A stretch of DNA of 23,414 nucleotides from a virus. A program made the translations under genes and the position numbers. The notes under the pieces are model-generated. The model made no database searches, was not told the DNA's origin, and saw nothing but the letters and a program-made list of their open reading frames with translations. Position 1 is the stretch's first letter, and every line of letters begins with the position of its first letter. The stretch lies in the UHGV virus genome UHGV-0114356; one strand, 5' to 3'. This document shows positions 1 to 12,545 of the stretch, one piece after another.

Positions 1-101
1 GCGTCACGCCGAGCGCTTTCACTTCCTGCTCTACCCAATCCATATACGGAGCCGGTTGCGGTATTTCCGTTAATAGAGATAGTTCCGGTGCTATAAATCA
101 T
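1..101 (-). CDS. hypothetical protein, 5' part only (starts at 101, runs off the window start)
   Basis: ATG at 99-101 on the minus strand with AGGAG 5 nt upstream (rc of 102-115 = atttaggagttgtt). Open frame continues to position 1: MIYSTGTISINGNTATGSVYGLGRAGSESARRD... Gly/Thr/Ser-rich; too short to assign a family. Confidence 0.35.
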   Translation of the reverse strand, partial: MIYSTGTISINGNTATGSVYGLGRAGSESARRD

Positions 102-606
102 AACAACTCCTAAATTTAGACAACATGAAGCCCGGAGAGGTATATAACCATCACCAGAAATAATTTCTGAATTGGTTTTTAATACATGTTGGGCAACGCC
201 AGTGTTGGCATAGCTATAGTTGTATCAAATGCCATTGACCACCCACCCAAATAATAATTGCCGACTACTTTATTCCTTTCTGCTCTGACATTCCCACCTG
301 TCATTACAATTCCTTTATACCTAATATTTCCGTAACCACCAACGTGTCGACAGTTAGCCCCGGTATAAACAATCTGGCAAAATTCATCACCAATATTCAG
401 GTTCGCATTGGCGATATTTATTGTCCCATCAAAAATGAATGGCTTCGTGCAAGTAAGAAGACGTTTGCGTTGACGATTGGTTTATTCAATCCATCAACTA
501 AAATACCATGTAAACGAATTGCCATAACATTTCCCACTTTATTTTACTTACTCAACACAACAAGTATATTAAAATTGAACCTTGTCAACAACACAAAGGA
601 GTCCCA

Positions 607-837
607 ATGAAACTCGCTCTAATTATGCTGCCATTATGTCTGTCCCTCACTGCATGTGGTAGTGGCCTGAATACCGGTAAACCGAATTCCGGCGTTATCC
701 CAAAACCCTTGGATTGGGATAACGGTTCTTTAATTTATGATACCGAAAAGCTTCCAATGACTGGGCAATGGTGCCATGAGATTGATCATGAATACCGACG
801 AATTGGTTCACCTTCAAACTGTGTAGCTAACTACTAA
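607..837 (+). CDS. small secreted lipoprotein (76 aa); candidate superinfection-exclusion lipoprotein
   Basis: ATG 607 preceded by AAGGAG (596-601, 5-nt spacer). N-terminus MKLALIMLPLCLSLTAC is a signal peptide with a lipobox (L-T-A-C); mature part begins CGSG and has two further Cys. AT-rich, opposite orientation to the tail operon, followed by a terminator. Confidence 0.6.
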   Translation: MKLALIMLPLCLSLTACGSGLNTGKPNSGVIPKPLDWDNGSLIYDTEKLPMTGQWCHEIDHEYRRIGSPSNCVANY

Positions 838-870
838 AAGAAACCCCCCGCGCTAAGCGGGGTTGTTTTT
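838..870. terminator. bidirectional intrinsic terminator between convergent lipoprotein gene and J
   Basis: GC stem ccccgc (846-851) / gcgggg (857-862) with loop gctaa, flanked by an A-rich run on the 5' side and ttgttttt on the 3' side; T-tracts on both strands. Confidence 0.6.
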
Positions 871-1480
871 ATCCTGAGAATGAACCAGAACCGCGCGTCA
901 CAATGACGGTCGGTGAATTTATATAAGCCCCCATACTATTTTGAGCGGATACCTTAATTTTAACTGTAACGGCACGACTGGTTACAGGTGATGAGTGCAT
1001 TACAAGACGCTCGTTGCCGTCCATAGGAAGGTTTTTTTCTGAACCTTCAATGTTTATCGTGCAGCCACCAAAACCTTTAACGTTTGCCATAACGCAGATA
1101 TGTCTTCTATGTGCTGCACTTGATGTGTCATTGTATGTAATTGTTTTTTCGAGTACGCCATCATTTAACCTGCTAACGTCAGATCCTGTGTACATATTCG
1201 CAACGTCTCCCACAAAACTGGTAGCTTCCACAGTACCCGTGAATTTACCGCTTGTTGCTTGTATCTCACCAGTAAATCTACCACCACTAGCGTATACTAT
1301 ACCTCTCACAGTTACATTATTGAATTCAGCATCCCCAGCTTTATTTAACTTCCAACCAGCAGAACCAGCTGCATAGTTGTTGGACTGGATATAGTTGCCG
1401 ATTTTGGCGTTCTCAATGGTGCCGTCCTGGATGAAGCTGGCCCGGATGAATGTCTGCCCGTTCTGGATCACGAACGGCAA
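869..1480 (-). CDS. J: host specificity protein J (tail tip/central fibre), C-terminal fragment 3 of 3, out of frame with fragment 2
   Basis: Translation PFVIQNGQTFIRASFIQDG... is collinear with the lambda gpJ C-terminal region (lambda ...MFVAQGNQIFMNDVFLK...). The listed start is an in-frame TTG; this frame is open upstream to a stop at 1640-1642. Confidence 0.7.
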   Translation of the reverse strand: MPFVIQNGQTFIRASFIQDGTIENAKIGNYIQSNNYAAGSAGWKLNKAGDAEFNNVTVRGIVYASGGRFTGEIQATSGKFTGTVEATSFVGDVANMYTGSDVSRLNDGVLEKTITYNDTSSAAHRRHICVMANVKGFGGCTINIEGSEKNLPMDGNERLVMHSSPVTSRAVTVKIKVSAQNSMGAYINSPTVIVTRGSGSFSG

Positions 1481-1482
1481 AG

Positions 1483-3198
1483 CTACGCTATTTCCGGCTG
1501 CCGTGGTGACGGCAGTGTTACAGTCCCGCCGACCATAGTAGTCACGGCGAAACGGTCTGCCAGGAAGATTACCTGTGACTGCATGCCGGAGGGTGTATTT
1601 TGAACCCCTATACCCATCCCGGCAGCGTAATACTGCCCGTTACTGGACACCCCCACCTTGATGTTATACATCGCGCTGAGGTTACCGTTTACGTTCGCAA
1701 TGGCCTGAGCGTTGGTGGTGATGGCTGAGGTATGCCCGTTCACCGTCGCCGTGATGCTGTTTACCTGCGTGGCCATAGCCTGCTGGTAATCGGAGAACGT
1801 CTGATTCAGGCTGTTTATGGATGCCTTGTTGCCGTTGACATCCGTCTGCAGGCTCAGCAGAGAGCGCGCCGTTGCCTCCTTCTCGTTAACGATTACCTCA
1901 TCAATACGATCCAGCTGCGCACTGTTACCGGCGACCGTCGCGGAAAGCCTTTTGCGTGTGGCCACCTGCGCCAGCCCGTTCTGGATTATCGCAATTGCAG
2001 AGTTCTTCACCCCGCCCGTCATGCCGTCCATCGACACAGAAATCTCGTCGATCTTCACTTCGGCCTGAGCCAGCCAGTCAGCGTTCTCCAGGATGTCTTT
2101 CGCCTGCTGCTCGAGTTCGTCGGCATGGTTTTTAATTTCGTCAGCCATGCCAGCAATTTTTTCATTGCTGTCCACCGCGTTCTCGATCAGATCTTTGAAC
2201 GTATCGGAGCCTTTCATGTCCTCCAGGATTGCATCGGTGATATCGGAAACATCGATGCTGGCCTGCCCGCGCACCCAGTCTGTCCAGTCGCTCTGATTCC
2301 CGATGCGGTCAACCAGCCGTGCCCGGTACCAGAATTCCTGCCCTGCCTTCAGCCCCATCTGCTGATAGAGTTTCTGAGGATACGGCACCGACGCCAAAAG
2401 CATTGGATTTGCCCCATCGACTGAAGCGCTGTATTGCAGTTCCGTGCTCAGGGTGTCGGCGGTATCTGCGGGGAAACCCCATGTAATGTTGATCCCTAAT
2501 ACAACATCCTCTGTTGCTGTTAGTCCGACAGGTTTGGGCACTTCACCGGTGCGGCCGGTAAGATGGGTCAACGCAGACGTGGCCCAAAGGCTGGACGCTC
2601 CCCCAGAGTTAATCGCACGGACGCGCACAAGGTAATCGCCCTCGAAAATGCCAGGCACTTCGATATTTCGTAACCCGGTTTCAGGCACGTTTACCCATTC
2701 GTTATTTCCGCGCTTCCACTGTGCCCGGTACGCTATTACGTCCGACTGCAGTTTGCCGTCTTTATCAATTGGCGCATCCCACGAGGCGGTTAGCGTGGCC
2801 ACGCGTTGCCCCTGGCGAACCGCATCATAGCTCGATACCACGATGTTGGTCGGCTGGTTAACTAGCCCGGTCGGAATCAGGCTTATCGGAGGAGTATCGA
2901 GGCGAGCATTGTTATCAACGGCGTCGTATTTCGACGCGTTATACTCCGCACCGGTAATGGTGAAGGTGTTTTCCTCATCATCAAATTTTAGGTTCGTTAC
3001 CCGGAAATACTGCAGGCGCAGCTGACCAGCATCAATGACGAATACGGCATTAGGTAATGGCGCCGCCGTGAACGGCGTGGACAGGATCAGCTGCGTGCCA
3101 TTTACGGCCTGTATCATCCGGCTTTCAACGGTACCGCCCTGGGTGCGAATCATCAGCGTATCGCCCGCCACCGCACTGGTGCCCCGGTCAATGGTCAC
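1483..3198 (-). CDS. J: host specificity protein J, central fragment 2 of 3 (FNIII-like region)
   Basis: Collinear with lambda gpJ from about TLTLDREITLP onward (here AVTIDRGTSAVAG...) to ...SQFLVAANRIAF (here ...SQVIFLADRFAV). Listed start is a GTG; frame is open upstream to 3255. Confidence 0.7.
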   Translation of the reverse strand: MTIDRGTSAVAGDTLMIRTQGGTVESRMIQAVNGTQLILSTPFTAAPLPNAVFVIDAGQLRLQYFRVTNLKFDDEENTFTITGAEYNASKYDAVDNNARLDTPPISLIPTGLVNQPTNIVVSSYDAVRQGQRVATLTASWDAPIDKDGKLQSDVIAYRAQWKRGNNEWVNVPETGLRNIEVPGIFEGDYLVRVRAINSGGASSLWATSALTHLTGRTGEVPKPVGLTATEDVVLGINITWGFPADTADTLSTELQYSASVDGANPMLLASVPYPQKLYQQMGLKAGQEFWYRARLVDRIGNQSDWTDWVRGQASIDVSDITDAILEDMKGSDTFKDLIENAVDSNEKIAGMADEIKNHADELEQQAKDILENADWLAQAEVKIDEISVSMDGMTGGVKNSAIAIIQNGLAQVATRKRLSATVAGNSAQLDRIDEVIVNEKEATARSLLSLQTDVNGNKASINSLNQTFSDYQQAMATQVNSITATVNGHTSAITTNAQAIANVNGNLSAMYNIKVGVSSNGQYYAAGMGIGVQNTPSGMQSQVIFLADRFAVTTMVGGTVTLPSPRQPEIA

Positions 3199-4718
3199 GG
3201 CCTTAAGACCAGCGTTATACCCGGTGATACGCCGTAAACGCGCCCTGACAGGCGTTCATCTGCAAACGCAAATACGGTGCCCGGCACGAATACAAAGCCA
3301 TCAAGTCCAGTCTGAAGCGTGATAATGCGGTCAAGGGAGTTGGAATACACCGCCCACCCGCCACGCCGCTGCGCCTCGCTCTCACGCGTACAACCGATCG
3401 CAGTGATTTGTGTCTGCTTAAACTTGAACTGCCTTACCAGTTCCGGAAACATCACTGCCGTGGTGCGGTCCTGGTAGTGGTTATCCGGATCGCTGAAGTT
3501 AATCAGCGCGCTGGAGAATCGGTTTTTCTCACTGCCACTCGAGTACACCGGCTTACCCACCACTGATGCGCGAGTGAGGATCTGCAACTTCGTAGTGTCC
3601 GCCGGCATGTCAGAGACAACATTGAACATGTTGTTGCCCCAGAAAGTCATTCCGTTGAAGCCCGCGGCAATATCTTTAATCACCTGCCAGGCATCAGCCT
3701 GGGACTGGATGTAAACGTCAAACATGAAGCGTGGCTCGGTACCGCTTCCGCCTTTCCCGTCGGGTACCTTCTGGTCGCAGCGCTGGGCGATGCGATAGAT
3801 CTCCCACTTATCGAGCATTTCTGGCGTCACGCGGCGCCCAAGGCCGAAGCGCGGCTCAGTCAGAACATCGAACCAAATCCACGCCGGGTTATTCGTCCAG
3901 CCCCATTTAAACGTCCCGTCCCATGTTCCGCTATAAGTCCGCGCTATTGGATCATAGTTCGAAGGGATTCGGATGATGCGCCCCTTCGGCATGCAGGAAA
4001 TCTTAGGGATGTTGTTGAATGACTTTGCGTTAAAGGACACGTACAGCAGCGCTGTGTGTGGATATCGCAGGCGAGCATCGATCACTTCAGTAATCGCTTG
4101 CACCTGCGTTTTGTTCTGCAGCATCTGGCTGGTGCTGTCATCGGTGTCACGCACCACTCGAATTTGCCAGCCAGTGCTGGCTTTGGGAAGATTAATACGG
4201 TGGGTTAGTTCATAGAGCGAGCTGAGCTTCTCTGTGACGGTTTTCGTCATGACTGTCGAGTAAGCGCCACCGTCCACCGCCAGATCAATATGGTACTGAA
4301 CCGTAGTGCCGACAATATCCCCATCGTTTTCCTGCTGCTGTAACCCAGGGATGCCAATACGAACCAGCACCGCGTCAATCTGGGTGTTACTCAGTGCGCG
4401 GGTCCATGGTGTGGCCTTTGTCAGCGATACCCCAACCGTAGTTTCATTCTCGACTGCAGGGAATCCCGGTATTGGTGTCTGGGTCTGTGTGCCAGGCCGG
4501 AAATCCCATGACACATTTTCAAAATTCATCGTTCCGTCGGGGTTTCCCAACGGCGTACCGTCCAGGAATATCCGGGTCGCATCCAGGCCACCAGCAAACT
4601 CCCCCTCCCCGAGCGCCAGCAGCATGCGGCAGCGCGCCATTGACTGAGCCGAATCGGGCTGTTCTACAGGTGTGTGCTGCTTCTGGCTGCCACCCTTTGC
4701 ACCAGTGATCGCTTCCAT
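3195..4718 (-). CDS. J: host specificity protein J, N-terminal fragment 1 of 3
   Basis: N-terminus MEAITGAKGGSQKQHTPVEQ resembles lambda gpJ MGKGSSKGHTPREAK; conserved blocks LQNKTQ, IPSNYDP, YSGTWDGTFK, EPRFGLG, CDQKVPDG. Ends prematurely relative to lambda J (about 1130 aa). Confidence 0.8.
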   Translation of the reverse strand: MEAITGAKGGSQKQHTPVEQPDSAQSMARCRMLLALGEGEFAGGLDATRIFLDGTPLGNPDGTMNFENVSWDFRPGTQTQTPIPGFPAVENETTVGVSLTKATPWTRALSNTQIDAVLVRIGIPGLQQQENDGDIVGTTVQYHIDLAVDGGAYSTVMTKTVTEKLSSLYELTHRINLPKASTGWQIRVVRDTDDSTSQMLQNKTQVQAITEVIDARLRYPHTALLYVSFNAKSFNNIPKISCMPKGRIIRIPSNYDPIARTYSGTWDGTFKWGWTNNPAWIWFDVLTEPRFGLGRRVTPEMLDKWEIYRIAQRCDQKVPDGKGGSGTEPRFMFDVYIQSQADAWQVIKDIAAGFNGMTFWGNNMFNVVSDMPADTTKLQILTRASVVGKPVYSSGSEKNRFSSALINFSDPDNHYQDRTTAVMFPELVRQFKFKQTQITAIGCTRESEAQRRGGWAVYSNSLDRIITLQTGLDGFVFVPGTVFAFADERLSGRVYGVSPGITLVLRP

Positions 4719-10700: not shown

Positions 10701-10904
10701 TCCCTTCAGCGCAGCCTGCTGCTCTTTTGCCCCTTGGGCACCCTGCTTGCCAGCTTCAGCGCCGGCACGAAAAACACTGTTAAGGTCATCCGCTTTATCG
10801 ACAGCACCGGCCGCCGCCTGACCGAGTTTATCCAGCTCATTACTGGCTGTTTTCAGGTCAGAAACATCGGCCCGCAAAGTAATCGAGGCGATCTGGTCTG
10901 TCAT
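7749..10904 (-). CDS. H: tail tape measure protein
   Basis: 1051 aa, Ala/Gln/Glu-rich helical and repetitive, Gly-rich C-terminal part; AAGGAG RBS before ATG 10904; located between G-T and M as in lambda. Confidence 0.9.
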   Translation of the reverse strand: MTDQIASITLRADVSDLKTASNELDKLGQAAAGAVDKADDLNSVFRAGAEAGKQGAQGAKEQQAALKGLLENINPTLIALEKLEDQQVALQRFHAGGFLNTEEFKSYQTILDNTRQKLGETAEASMRAQAELAATQAAEKQSAALKNLLGSIDPTIRAFNSLDEQHAQLVAHFEAGRINGTQFEHFNTILNQTRERLSGVADVLPEALSRQEAAARRAGISVGQYSAALRTLPAQFTDIATQLAGGQSPFLILLQQGGQIKDSFGGLGPMLQALRDALFGFNEESRETSESAAGISDAAEGLNNTSEAAEKLGRAGGLLNTFNLAIAGSVGLLALLAGAAYSSSQQFDNVARSLILMGGAGFSSMQQLNDAAKDVADNAGASLAESVDTLVQLNDTGKYTADQMTKIAKSILAMGDAGLDTKAALADFSRLANDPIKALASLNQQYGFVDEAMMKHLITLEKTKGKTAAANEAITLFADTMEDRSNKIVEATDNIGKAWNGIKAFSSDIFGQIGVTVRAWGNQIIDIFELVKSSIKDLFLNITSLDAKFTSTIAGWADKIPGGGALANFLGMDVEAMKKAGAEADKEIEANKKRYNELWKRVTAPNAQANYEAEARGSNVKGDGGTSRESRDAVSKLAQDSAKKTKEAKATLDAGDRTLENYRAQARTLTETLETLRKTGETQVRYTEFSKQQSRFAELDEAAKTRALTAQEKSLLSSREAILNAAKVVDQKNKEVEAQQKINGLAQQANKYVTQMSEKTEALRGSAGLSSRQSQRMMEEAQLRQGWLNGGGKLDDAGYEKELAALRNYYSEEDKLRGDWKSGAVAGWNEYLDAATNTYDAVKNVASSTLTGLSDMLTSLMTTGKASIKEFGESMLKMIVEVTNRLMVAYAVQAAMGWISGGSGGGSTPGGAYANAAAGVTFNAKGGVYDSPGLSKYVNGVYDTPQHFTFQGASKFAKGGVFAEAGAEAIMPLTRDSAGRLGVRAQGGGGMAPIINTTVNVDAGGSVTTQTSSSGDAMGRALAEEMQNAALQVVQKQLKPGGMIYNFSKGR

Positions 10905-11547
10905 TATTTCGTCTCCTTGTGCATTACCTTGAGAGCCTCGCTTTCCATAATTTGAAGGTCAGCCATGCAGGCCGCCGCATCCTCAACCCCGTGTAACTCG
11001 AACATCCAGGGGAGAACGTTGTAATCAAGGCCGGTCGCCCCGCTCGCGCCGACTCGCCACTGGGTCGCCAGGGAAGAGAAGATGGTGAAAGACTTCCACA
11101 CAGAGGGCAGGATCCCCACCTCTTCCTCCACGTCCTCAGGCGTCAAACCAAAAGCGCTCAGCTCCGCGAGCGTCGGCCCCGGCGTATACAACGCTGCGGC
11201 GACCTGCCTCAGTTTTTTTCGCGGATACCCATAAGCTCTTTGGTGTAGGCCAGACCGATGCTGTCGAACGCGCGAGGATAGTTCTTCAGGAGGACAATTA
11301 CGTTATCGCGGGTGAACTCGTCAGGTAGTGCCCACCCCTCGACAATTTCCATGAGGTAGTCGGCCTGTGGCTCGATAGCATCCTTTTTACCTTCGGCGGC
11401 CTTTTGCAGCTTCTCGTCCATGGAGCGCAGCTCTCCCAGCGTCTTATGGCGGAAAGTGAACGTCAGCTTGCCGTCTTCGGCGCCAGCGCGCGGAATGCTC
11501 GCGGTCACAGAAAAAGTTGGGTTGGGGATCAGGGAAAATTTGGTCAT
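10904..11547 (-). CDS. tail assembly chaperone G-T fusion, made by -1 programmed frameshift (T-like C-terminal part 10904-11218)
   Basis: The -1 frame downstream of the slippery site is open from the G body through the 95-aa T-like ORF (...KKLRQVAAALYTPGPTLAELSAFGLTPEDV...LPSVWKSFTIFSSLATQWR...); the T ORF has no good start of its own (TTG). Arrangement as lambda G/GT. Confidence 0.6.
11209..11547 (-). CDS. G: tail assembly chaperone G
   Basis: ATG 11545-11547 with AGGAA RBS (rc of 11548-11560) gives MTKFSLIPNPTF... (113 aa), ending IREKN; acidic small protein directly after the major tail gene. The longer track ORF (start 11634) overlaps V and is not used. Confidence 0.7.
   Translation of the reverse strand: MTKFSLIPNPTFSVTASIPRAGAEDGKLTFTFRHKTLGELRSMDEKLQKAAEGKKDAIEPQADYLMEIVEGWALPDEFTRDNVIVLLKNYPRAFDSIGLAYTKELMGIREKN
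11212..11218 (-). other. slippery heptamer A-AAA-AAC for -1 ribosomal frameshifting (G to G-T)
   Basis: Minus-strand cgc-gAA-AAA-AAC-tga at the 3' end of G (plus-strand 7-T run 11213-11219); fits the X-XXY-YYZ rule and lies 3 nt before the G stop. Confidence 0.6.
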
Positions 11548-11581
11548 TTCGATTCCTAAGAAAGACTTTGGTTTCAGTAGC

Positions 11582-11604
11582 AAAGAAAGCCCGGCGTACC
11601 GGGC
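11582..11604 (-). terminator. intrinsic terminator/attenuator after major tail gene V
   Basis: Minus-strand hairpin gcccgg-tacg-ccgggc (11589-11604) followed by tttcttt (plus-strand aaagaaa 11582-11588), between the V stop and the G start. Confidence 0.5.
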
Positions 11605-11612
11605 TCGAGTGG

Positions 11613-12545
11613 TTAGCTGACCGTGACGGTGCAAGCAGCAGAGGTGATAGTTTTGCCCGCCGCGTCAGTGACTTCGCAGGTGTAAGAGCCAGCATCACCG
11701 GATGCCACAGATGGAATGTTGAACGTCGAGGCGGTTTTGCCCGGAATTGCGGAGCTTCCTTTCTTCCACACGTAGGTGTAAGGGGCTGAGCCGCCTTGCA
11801 TAACGACGGCTAAATCGAGCGCATCTCCAACACTAACTGCTTTGGTTGATGGCAGATCAGTCAGGAACGCCAGCGGCGTAACGGATGAATCGGCGATCGG
11901 GTAAATCTGCATATCCGATTCGAAGTTCATGCGCGCTTCGTTGCTTTCCACGGCGTTGATTTCGGTCTTAGGCACCTTCTGGAAAGACACTTTGGCAGAG
12001 TAATAACGGTCCGCTTTGCCGCGCGGGTTATGGAACCACACAGCAGTGGTGTCGCTGGATTCGTCAAGTTCACTCAGACGCTTGTAAATTGCCAGCAGCG
12101 GATCGTGCGCGAAGGTGTAGACCTGCACCACGGCGTTTTTGAAGGTCGGGATGGTACGGGCCTTATCGTCTTCAAGGAACTGCACGCTGATGGTCTGCTG
12201 GTCACCACCCTCTGTGGAGAGGGTCATCACCTGCGGCATCGTGATCCACGTGTCGATTTTACGCAGCGTGCCCGCGCCAGTGCCTGCCGGGAATTTGGTG
12301 GTGTCAGAGGTATCGAACGAATCCAGCACGATTTTGGTACCGGCTACGGATTTAACGCGCAGCACCATATTATCGAGTTTTAGCCAGCCGGAGCTCACCT
12401 GCACTACGTCGCCCGCCAGGATGCCAGCGGCAGATGCAACAGTCAGTTCGCATTCAGTAGCGTTAGAGGCAGCGGTAAAGGTGATGGGAGCCTGATAGGC
12501 CTTGGCCACGTTAACACGCGAGCCGTTAGGGATTGCGAATGCCAT
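11613..12545 (-). CDS. V: major tail protein V with C-terminal Ig-like (Big_2-type) domain
   Basis: 310 aa; AGGAGA RBS before ATG 12545; C-terminal ~90 aa (...YTYVWKKGSSAIPGKTASTFNIPSVASGDAGSYTCEVTDAAGKTITSAACTVTVS) has the Ig-like pattern seen at the C-terminus of lambda gpV; position upstream of G/GT/H. Confidence 0.85.
   Translation of the reverse strand: MAFAIPNGSRVNVAKAYQAPITFTAASNATECELTVASAAGILAGDVVQVSSGWLKLDNMVLRVKSVAGTKIVLDSFDTSDTTKFPAGTGAGTLRKIDTWITMPQVMTLSTEGGDQQTISVQFLEDDKARTIPTFKNAVVQVYTFAHDPLLAIYKRLSELDESSDTTAVWFHNPRGKADRYYSAKVSFQKVPKTEINAVESNEARMNFESDMQIYPIADSSVTPLAFLTDLPSTKAVSVGDALDLAVVMQGGSAPYTYVWKKGSSAIPGKTASTFNIPSVASGDAGSYTCEVTDAAGKTITSAACTVTVS

What the first reader, a model, noticed from the sequence alone, without database searches (positions are those of the whole stretch)
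3195..3258. Frame break 1 in host-specificity gene J
Fragment 1 stays collinear with lambda J up to ...GRVYGVSPGITLVL (lambda ...GRVLAVNSQTRTLTL) and then hits TGA at 3195-3197. The alternative frame is open from 3255 and continues the lambda alignment (AVTIDRGTS... versus lambda DREITLPSSGT...). Both frames are J-like within a few codons of 3199-3207 (ggccttaag), so one missing or extra base there would restore a single ORF. Either the prophage has a broken tail-tip gene, or this is a base-calling error.
Basis: seen in the sequence. Interest (0 to 1): 0.45.

Follow-up and report, generated by a model that had tools for sequence, protein, structure and literature searches.

The report
Four-base deletion breaks phage tail-tip gene
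The tail-tip (J) gene of an E. coli prophage on this metagenome contig is broken by the loss of one copy of a GGCG-GGCG doublet, which is an ordinary inactivating mutation and not a new biological feature.

Summary
The J gene is on the minus strand. Fragment 1 (4718..3198) ends at TGA 3197-3195. The second frame is open from 3255, after TGA 3258-3256. The cause is different from the one proposed. It is a 4-base deletion at 3233-3230, not a single-base indel at 3199-3207. All 17 related J genes examined (84-99.4% identical) read TAC GGC GGG CGT ATC; HK639 has a slightly different version. The window reads TACGGCGTATC, so one unit of the GGCG-GGCG tandem repeat has been lost, the pattern expected from replication slippage. 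Putting GGCG back gives one ORF that aligns without gaps to intact J proteins over 1071 residues. The other 26 late genes are intact. The overlap has no slippery heptamer and no homopolymer. A second ENA assembly carries the same deletion, so base-calling error is unlikely, though coverage is low (4.5x) and the two assemblies may share reads. The truncated product stops inside the hub domain HDIV and lacks the fibre and the receptor-binding domain, so the phage is probably non-infectious. The second J break (about 1513-1547) and the hcr fragment at the contig end look like assembly joins. The finding is ordinary and of low interest.

The parts
3198..4718 (-). J fragment 1: 507 codons. Codons 1-496 (4718..3231) are native J sequence. 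The last 11 codons (3230..3198, VSPGITLVLRP) are out-of-frame read-through after the deletion.
   Evidence: EC09 J residues 1-496 are 100% identical to window 4718..3231; PF24801 FNIII-A_GpJ, PF13550 Phage-tail_3.
3230..3233 (-). Lesion site: the single remaining GGCG unit. Intact relatives have GGCGGGCG here. Because of the repeat, the exact 4 deleted bases cannot be placed within the ancestral 8-mer.
   Evidence: Alignments: 16 relatives have TACGGCGGGCGTATC and HK639 has TATGGTGGGCGCATC. The window and L006 have TACGGCGTATC.
3195..3197 (-). Premature TGA stop of fragment 1. It overlaps the GTG at 3198-3196 of the next frame (GTGA).
3256..3258 (-). TGA in the second frame. It is the upstream limit of the 58-nt stretch (3255..3198) where both frames are open.
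1483..3231 (-). J fragment 2. The native J frame resumes at codon CGT 3231-3229, the R of the conserved GGR. It encodes the rest of the HDIV beta-sandwich, the FN3 domains, the helical region and the first half of PF09327, and ends at a stop at 1485-1483 after break 2.
1513..1547 (-). Break 2 (context only, not the finding itself): about 35 nt of quasi-duplication where H6/CX21-type J sequence joins ABWA45/EC09-type sequence out of register at GCCGT.
   Evidence: The sister scaffold L006 has a 14-N gap ending at the same base.
869..1480 (-). J fragment 3: the C-terminal 203 codons (second half of PF09327 plus the distal domain), 99% identical to EC09 J residues 1091-1304.

Best explanation
The window is a low-coverage metagenome contig. 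It carries the late-gene half of an HK639-like lambdoid prophage of E. coli. Its tail-tip gene J has lost one unit of a two-unit tandem repeat: GGCG-GGCG has become GGCG. This is the expected product of slipped-strand mispairing during replication. The -4 frameshift gives 11 wrong codons and then a TGA stop. The resulting 507-residue product ends about 10 residues into the beta-sandwich inserted in hub domain HDIV. It lacks the last HDIV strands, the linker, the FNIII domains, the helical shaft, the central fibre and the receptor-binding domain. In lambda, J starts tail assembly and carries receptor recognition (textbook knowledge, not tested here). This allele should therefore give tail-less or non-adsorbing particles unless it reverts or is rescued by another J gene in the same cell. 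Shown here: the deletion, its repeat context, the intact state of all relatives, restoration of the ORF by re-insertion, and the integrity of the other late genes. Inferred: the slippage mechanism, that the lesion exists in the sampled DNA and not only in the assembly, and the loss of function.
For: DNA alignments show exactly 4 bases missing, with no other gap, against ABWA45, H6 and HK639 and against 17 relatives of 84-99.4% identity. All 12 complete E. coli genomes carrying this J span 905 bases for the 901-base query. Re-inserting GGCG gives a 1079-codon ORF that aligns without gaps over 1071 residues to H6 J (94.6%) and HK639 J (90.9%). It also recreates the GGR motif shared with lambda J and the F2-pyocin fibre. 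EC09 J residues 1-496 are 100% identical to fragment 1, and fragment 2 has no further stop for 571 codons, so the lesion is recent. The 26 other late genes are full length in a single frame. The overlap has no homopolymer of 4 or more bases and no XXXYYYZ heptamer. The same 507-aa product and the same deletion occur on a second ENA scaffold that is identical over 9094 + 1467 nt. [quoted passage not shown]
Against: The contig has only 4.5x k-mer coverage (name given). The two assemblies carrying the deletion are identical outside the break-2 region, so they may come from the same reads or the same strain and are not shown to be independent. The same contig has two other junctions that look like assembly joins: break 2 and the hcr end. 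The deletion allele was found nowhere else: 0 hits in GTDB species representatives, IMG/VR and JGI metagenomes. No reads were available, and no function was tested.
Confidence: 0.8

Rival explanations
1. The 4-base deletion is an artefact of library PCR, sequencing or assembly, and the real gene is intact.
For: Coverage is low at 4.5x. The contig has two other suspicious joins at short microhomologies: a 5-nt GCCGT at break 2, which coincides with an N-gap in the sister scaffold, and a 9-nt overlap with an hcr fragment that does not flank this prophage in EC09. J is a habitual assembly breakpoint: 14 of 15 listed members of its 90% cluster are 'partial'. The allele is absent from every other collection searched.
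Against: The 8-nt repeat is far shorter than any assembly k-mer, so a de Bruijn graph cannot collapse it. The overlap has no homopolymer, and 4-nt deletions are not a typical short-read error (general knowledge). The deletion is shared by a second assembly that does not share the two suspicious joins. That pattern suggests the deletion is in the reads and did not come from an assembler heuristic. There are no other indels in 26 genes.
Confidence: 0.13
2. The gene is still functional. Either ribosomes shift -1 in the 58-nt overlap, or translation restarts at GTG 3198 (which overlaps the TGA as GTGA), giving a two-piece J whose halves assemble.
For: The shift needed is -1/+2. The stop and a GTG overlap as GTGA, with an AAGG 2 nt upstream. 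Natural systems split hub and fibre into separate proteins, as in T5 pb3/pb4/pb5 (discussed in PMC10721106).
Against: The overlap has no XXXYYYZ heptamer in any frame, whereas the genuine G/GT site of the same contig has A AAA AAC. All 17 relatives are single-frame, so nothing about the arrangement is conserved. The split falls inside a domain (the HDIV beta-sandwich, lambda 483-569), not at the hub/fibre boundary used by T5. The AAGG-to-GTG spacing is too short for a good ribosome-binding site (inference).
Confidence: 0.04
3. The GGCG repeat is a reversible phase-variation switch that turns phage infectivity on and off.
For: The lesion is the loss of exactly one unit of a tetranucleotide tandem repeat, the same unit size as classical contingency loci (general knowledge).
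Against: The ancestral allele has only two units. There is no copy-number variation among 17 relatives, and HK639 has an imperfect repeat (GGTGGGCG). Once only one unit remains there is no repeat left to slip back.
Confidence: 0.02

Closest known systems
Intact host-specificity / tail-tip protein J (TipJ family) of HK639-like E. coli prophages: ABWA45 WP_088765718.1, EC09 WP_484488993.1, H6 WP_016247135.1, and the phage HK639 host specificity protein (ADO67707.1). More distantly, lambda gpJ (NP_040600.1; PDB 8IYK).
   Same: The gene order is the same (M-L-K-I-J) and the Pfam domains are the same. DNA identity around the site is 99.3-99.4%. Residues 1-496 are 100% identical to EC09 J. After repair the protein aligns without gaps over 1071 residues.
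   Different: The window allele lacks 4 bases and is read in two frames (three, counting break 2). Its C-terminal part is a mosaic of H6-type and ABWA45-type sequence.
Frameshift in the side tail fibre gene stf of laboratory lambda (PaPa) relative to Ur-lambda
   Same: A phage tail-fibre gene is inactivated by a small frameshifting indel while the rest of the virion module stays intact (mentioned in PMC10721106).
   Different: stf is dispensable, and lambda PaPa is fully infectious through J. Here the essential J itself is hit, so infectivity should be lost (inference).
Programmed -1 frameshift of the tail assembly chaperones G/GT
   Same: Two overlapping reading frames within a tail gene. An example is present on this contig at 11218-11212.
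   Different: G/GT has a slippery A AAA AAC and is conserved among relatives. The J break has no slippery site and is absent from all relatives.
Tetranucleotide-repeat contingency (phase-variable) loci, for example in Haemophilus influenzae
   Same: A frameshift caused by gain or loss of a 4-nt repeat unit.
   Different: Those loci have long tracts and visible copy-number polymorphism. Here the change is from two units to one, with no polymorphism in 17 relatives.

Membership tests
TipJ / lambda gpJ tail-tip protein gene | N-terminal hub region with the FNIII-A_GpJ and Phage-tail_3 domains | tested here: met
   PF24801 scores 1.6e-45 and PF13550 scores 3.2e-12 in fragment 1.
TipJ / lambda gpJ tail-tip protein gene | Collinear similarity to solved J-type proteins across the break | tested here: met
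   The repaired protein matches PDB 25vf_A (3e-250), 23gd_D, 9l9p_S and lambda 8iyk_J (9e-101). A BLASTP alignment to lambda J runs straight through the repaired site.
TipJ / lambda gpJ tail-tip protein gene | Position after the tape-measure, M, L, K and I genes | tested here: met
   Pfam labels of the neighbouring genes and one-to-one matches to the EC09 genes.
TipJ / lambda gpJ tail-tip protein gene | A single uninterrupted ORF of about 1150-1300 codons | tested here: not met
   The gene is read in three frames: 507, 571 and 203 codons. It is a disrupted allele of the family, not a functional member.
Frameshift pseudogene made by slipped-strand deletion | Near-identical orthologues are intact at the site | tested here: met
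   17 of 17 relatives are intact, including 11 E. coli genomes at 98.8% identity or more.
Frameshift pseudogene made by slipped-strand deletion | The indel equals one unit of a tandem repeat present in the ancestral allele | tested here: met
   GGCGGGCG becomes GGCG.
Frameshift pseudogene made by slipped-strand deletion | The lesion is present in the organism's DNA, supported by reads | not testable with these tools
   Only assemblies are available. Two assemblies agree, but their independence is unknown.
Programmed ribosomal frameshift | A slippery heptamer in the region where the two frames overlap | tested here: not met
   None in any frame between 3270 and 3180. The positive control A AAA AAC was found at the G/GT site.
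Programmed ribosomal frameshift | The two-frame arrangement is conserved among relatives | tested here: not met
   All 17 relatives are single-frame.
Phase-variable simple-sequence contingency locus | A multi-unit repeat tract with copy-number variation between strains | tested here: not met
   There are two units in every relative and one in the window. HK639 has an imperfect repeat.

The most novel reading that the evidence does not exclude
The split J is still used. Translation would restart at the GTG that overlaps the premature TGA (GTGA, 3198-3195). This would give a separate hub piece and a separate fibre/receptor-binding piece that assemble non-covalently, a lambda-type tail tip caught turning into a T5-like multi-protein tip. 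Alternatively, the GGCG doublet could act as a crude on/off switch for prophage infectivity.
Probability: 0.03. Interest if true: 0.4.

Novelty: already known. Interest (0 to 1): 0.08.

Why it matters
The main value is for annotation and quality control. This J should be annotated as a frameshifted pseudogene, with the lesion at 3233-3230. The prophage should be treated as probably unable to make infectious particles. The contig should be used with caution, because its second J break and its hcr end look like assembly joins. It is a tidy example of prophage inactivation by loss of one unit of a short tandem repeat. It opens no new question.

Tried and rejected
1. That stretch is identical to the intact relatives, and the only gap is the 4-nt one at 3233-3230.

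2. Homopolymer miscall is rejected. The overlap has no run of 4 or more bases.

3. Programmed frameshift is rejected. There is no slippery heptamer and no conservation.

4. I looked for the deletion allele elsewhere. The exact 36-mer junction gave 0 hits in GTDB species representatives, IMG/VR and JGI metagenomes. A looser 19-mer gave 27, 31 and 1 hits, none of which is a J homologue by BLASTN, so they are chance matches.

5. I tried to identify the samples through the literature, searching the two ERZ assembly accessions, the SAMEA4431990 sample accession and the 'HEQI17' label. No paper was found.

6. I considered whether the hcr fragment marks the prophage's integration site. In EC09 the same prophage lies next to yciI/tonB, not hcr, and the sister scaffold continues into the tail fibre gene. 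The hcr end is therefore not the natural flank.

7. The large homology search, structure prediction and fold search were not used. The DNA-level comparison with near-identical intact genes already answers the question.
Full report
**Observation.** The J gene lies on the minus strand.
- An ORF of 507 codons runs from 4718 to 3198. It ends ...FADERLSGRVYGVSPGITLVLRP and stops at TGA 3197-3195.
- The neighbouring frame has a TGA at 3258-3256 and is open from 3255. It reads ...RRITGYNAGLKAVTIDRGTSAVAGDTLMIRTQGG... and continues for 571 codons to 1483.
- A third fragment of 203 codons follows (1480..869).
- Fragment 1 carries PF24801 (FNIII-A_GpJ) and PF13550 (Phage-tail_3). Fragment 2 carries a borderline fn3 match (24.7 bits, curated cut-off 25) and profile positions 1-71 of PF09327. 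Fragment 3 carries profile positions 72-138 of PF09327.

**Where the lesion is.**
- A 901-base query across the break matches 12 complete E. coli genomes and phage HK639. Every match spans 905 bases.
- Alignment with the intact J genes of E. coli ABWA45, E. coli H6 and phage HK639 shows a single gap of 4 bases. The relatives read GTT TAC GGC GGG CGT ATC; the window reads GTTTACGGCGTATC.
- I extended this to 17 relatives of 84-99.4% identity: 4 from annotated records and 13 IMG/VR contigs found with the intact 40-mer. Sixteen have GGCGGGCG and HK639 has GGTGGGCG. Only the window and one sister contig have a single GGCG.
- The lesion is thus the loss of one unit of a two-unit tetranucleotide tandem repeat. 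The remaining unit is at window 3233-3230.
- The 11 residues VSPGITLVLRP are out-of-frame translation. In a BLASTP alignment, window SGRVYGGRIT pairs with lambda AGISTGGRVL (lambda 487-496). The deleted bases remove part of the conserved GGR. The same GGR is present in the F2-pyocin fibre, PDB 25vf.

**Repair test.** Re-inserting GGCG gives one ORF of 1079 codons. It aligns without gaps over 1071 residues to H6 J (94.6% identity) and HK639 J (90.9%). It also matches solved J-type proteins end to end.
- EC09 J residues 1-496 are 100% identical to window 4718..3231, and residues 498 onward continue in the other frame from 3231.
- There are no further stops in the 571 codons after the shift, so the lesion is evolutionarily very recent, if it is real.

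**Provenance.** An exact-protein look-up shows that the window is ENA metagenome contig ERZ1755931 NODE_975_length_23414_cov_4.516204. That is a SPAdes-style name with low k-mer coverage.
- The same 507-residue product is encoded on a second ENA scaffold, ERZ28578782 HEQI17-1_SAMEA4431990 scaffold_811 (locus L006).
- L006 is identical to the window over 9094 + 1467 bases, including the deletion. It differs at only 11 positions, all within window 1570-1624, and has a 14-N gap next to them.
- The deletion is therefore reproduced in a second assembly. I cannot show that the two assemblies come from independent samples; a literature search for the accessions found nothing.
- The deletion junction is absent from GTDB species representatives, IMG/VR and JGI metagenomes. 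Looser 19-mer hits are chance matches in unrelated organisms.

**Real mutation or artefact?**

Evidence for a real mutation:
- The event is a clean 4-nt repeat-unit loss, not a homopolymer slip. The overlap has no run of 4 or more bases.
- The 8-nt repeat is much shorter than any assembly k-mer, so the graph cannot collapse it (inference).
- All 26 other late genes match their EC09 counterparts at full length in one frame.
- The sister assembly shares the deletion but not the two suspicious junctions of this contig. That pattern suggests the deletion is in the reads and did not come from assembler heuristics.

Evidence against:
- Coverage is low.
- The two assemblies may share reads.
- The contig does contain two probable mis-joins (see below).

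I put the real-mutation reading at about 0.8 and the artefact reading at about 0.13.

**Recoding and phase variation.**
- The shift needed is -1/+2. No XXXYYYZ heptamer exists in any frame between 3270 and 3180. The genuine G/GT chaperone site on this contig shows A AAA AAC at 11218-11212, with the -1 frame continuing into ORF 11191..10904.
- No relative has the two-frame arrangement.
- A phase-variation switch is also unlikely. There are only two repeat units, with no copy-number variation in 17 relatives.

**Consequence (inferred).** The lesion maps to lambda J residues 492-494. In the lambda tail-tip structure, residues 483-569 are a beta-sandwich inserted in hub domain HDIV between strands beta24 (477-482) and beta25 (570-578) (PMC10721106).
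- Downstream come the linker, FNIII-1 and FNIII-2, the helical shaft, the central straight fibre and the receptor-binding domain (PMC11101478).
- The 507-residue product therefore has an incomplete HDIV and lacks everything needed to close the tube and bind a receptor.
- In lambda, J initiates tail assembly and determines host range (textbook knowledge, not tested here). This allele should give tail-less or non-adsorbing particles unless it is rescued by another J gene.
- The premature TGA overlaps a GTG (GTGA), so restart of translation is conceivable. Even so, the split would fall inside a domain, unlike the natural hub/fibre split of phage T5. I give a functional split about 3-4%.

**Context: the other oddities of the contig.**
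- *Break 2 (about 1513-1547).* The window follows H6/CX21-type J sequence up to ...GTAACACTGCCGT. It then jumps back to ABWA45/EC09-type GCCGTCACCACGG.... This duplicates about 35 nt (EC09 J residues 1091-1103 are hit twice) in the middle of PF09327. The N-gap in L006 ends at exactly the same base. E. coli genomes such as CX21 carry two prophages whose J genes share this region. Fourteen of the 15 listed members of the 90% cluster of fragment 1 are 'partial' J proteins, presumably cut by contig ends. Break 2 is therefore most likely a join between two J alleles made by the assembler. From memory, SPAdes can merge scaffold neighbours on very short overlaps; I did not check this.
- *The hcr end.* Window 1-55 is the interior of E. 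coli hcr, 100% identical across the complete E. coli genomes sampled (5,403 of 5,426 genomes have a match to the window). It overlaps by 9 nt the first 55 nt of the side tail fibre gene. In EC09 this prophage lies next to yciI/tonB, not hcr, and L006 continues into a 275-codon tail fibre gene. This looks like a chimeric contig end.
- Neither point changes the verdict on break 1. Both show that the picture of a J gene broken in three pieces overstates the damage. Probably only the 4-base deletion is biological.

**Comparison with known things, and verdict.** This is a disrupted allele of the TipJ / lambda gpJ family in an HK639-like prophage.
- The nearest precedent is the frameshift in the lambda PaPa side tail fibre gene stf (mentioned in PMC10721106). 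The difference is that here the essential J gene is the one hit.
- The mechanism, loss of a short tandem-repeat unit by slippage, is textbook.
- Novelty: already known. Interest: low, about 0.08.

Noticed in passing
window 1513-1547 (minus strand): Second J frame break. About 35 nt are quasi-duplicated where H6/CX21-type J sequence joins ABWA45/EC09-type sequence out of register at a GCCGT microhomology, in the middle of PF09327. The sister scaffold L006 has a 14-N gap ending at the same base, so this is probably an assembly join between two J alleles.
   Followed up: partly
window 1-55: The first 55 bases are the interior of E. coli hcr (100% identity in the complete E. coli genomes sampled; 5,403 of 5,426 genomes match the window). 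They overlap by 9 nt (47-55) the 5' end of the side tail fibre gene. In EC09 the same prophage lies next to yciI/tonB, and L006 continues into the tail fibre gene. This is a likely chimeric contig end, or otherwise a large deletion.
   Followed up: partly
window 11212-11218 (minus strand), ORFs 11547..11209 and 11191..10904: Ordinary programmed -1 frameshift site of the tail assembly chaperones (G/GT type). The slippery A AAA AAC sits just before the G stop, and the -1 frame runs into the DUF1799 ORF.
   Followed up: partly
window 607-837 (+), hairpin 843-866: A 76-residue predicted lipoprotein gene (lipobox LSLTAC) convergent with J and followed by a GC-rich hairpin with a T run. It is 100% identical to a hypothetical protein in ABWA45 and EC09. 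It sits where lambda has lom and where H6 has cor, so it may be a moron or an exclusion gene.
   Followed up: no
window 11547-11616: EC09 carries a 792-nt 'phage tail tip fiber protein' gene between the tail tube and chaperone genes. The window has only a 68-nt intergenic gap there.
   Followed up: no
window 1570-1624: All 11 differences between the window and sister scaffold L006 cluster here, right next to break 2. The window has the H6/CX21-type variant and L006 the ABWA45-type variant, which suggests two J alleles in the sampled population or genome.
   Followed up: partly
window 182-394 (minus strand): A DUF6453 family gene (71 aa), 100% identical to the EC09 copy, lies between the lipoprotein gene and the tail fibre gene start. 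The mechanical ORF list shows only a 41-aa piece in this interval.
   Followed up: no
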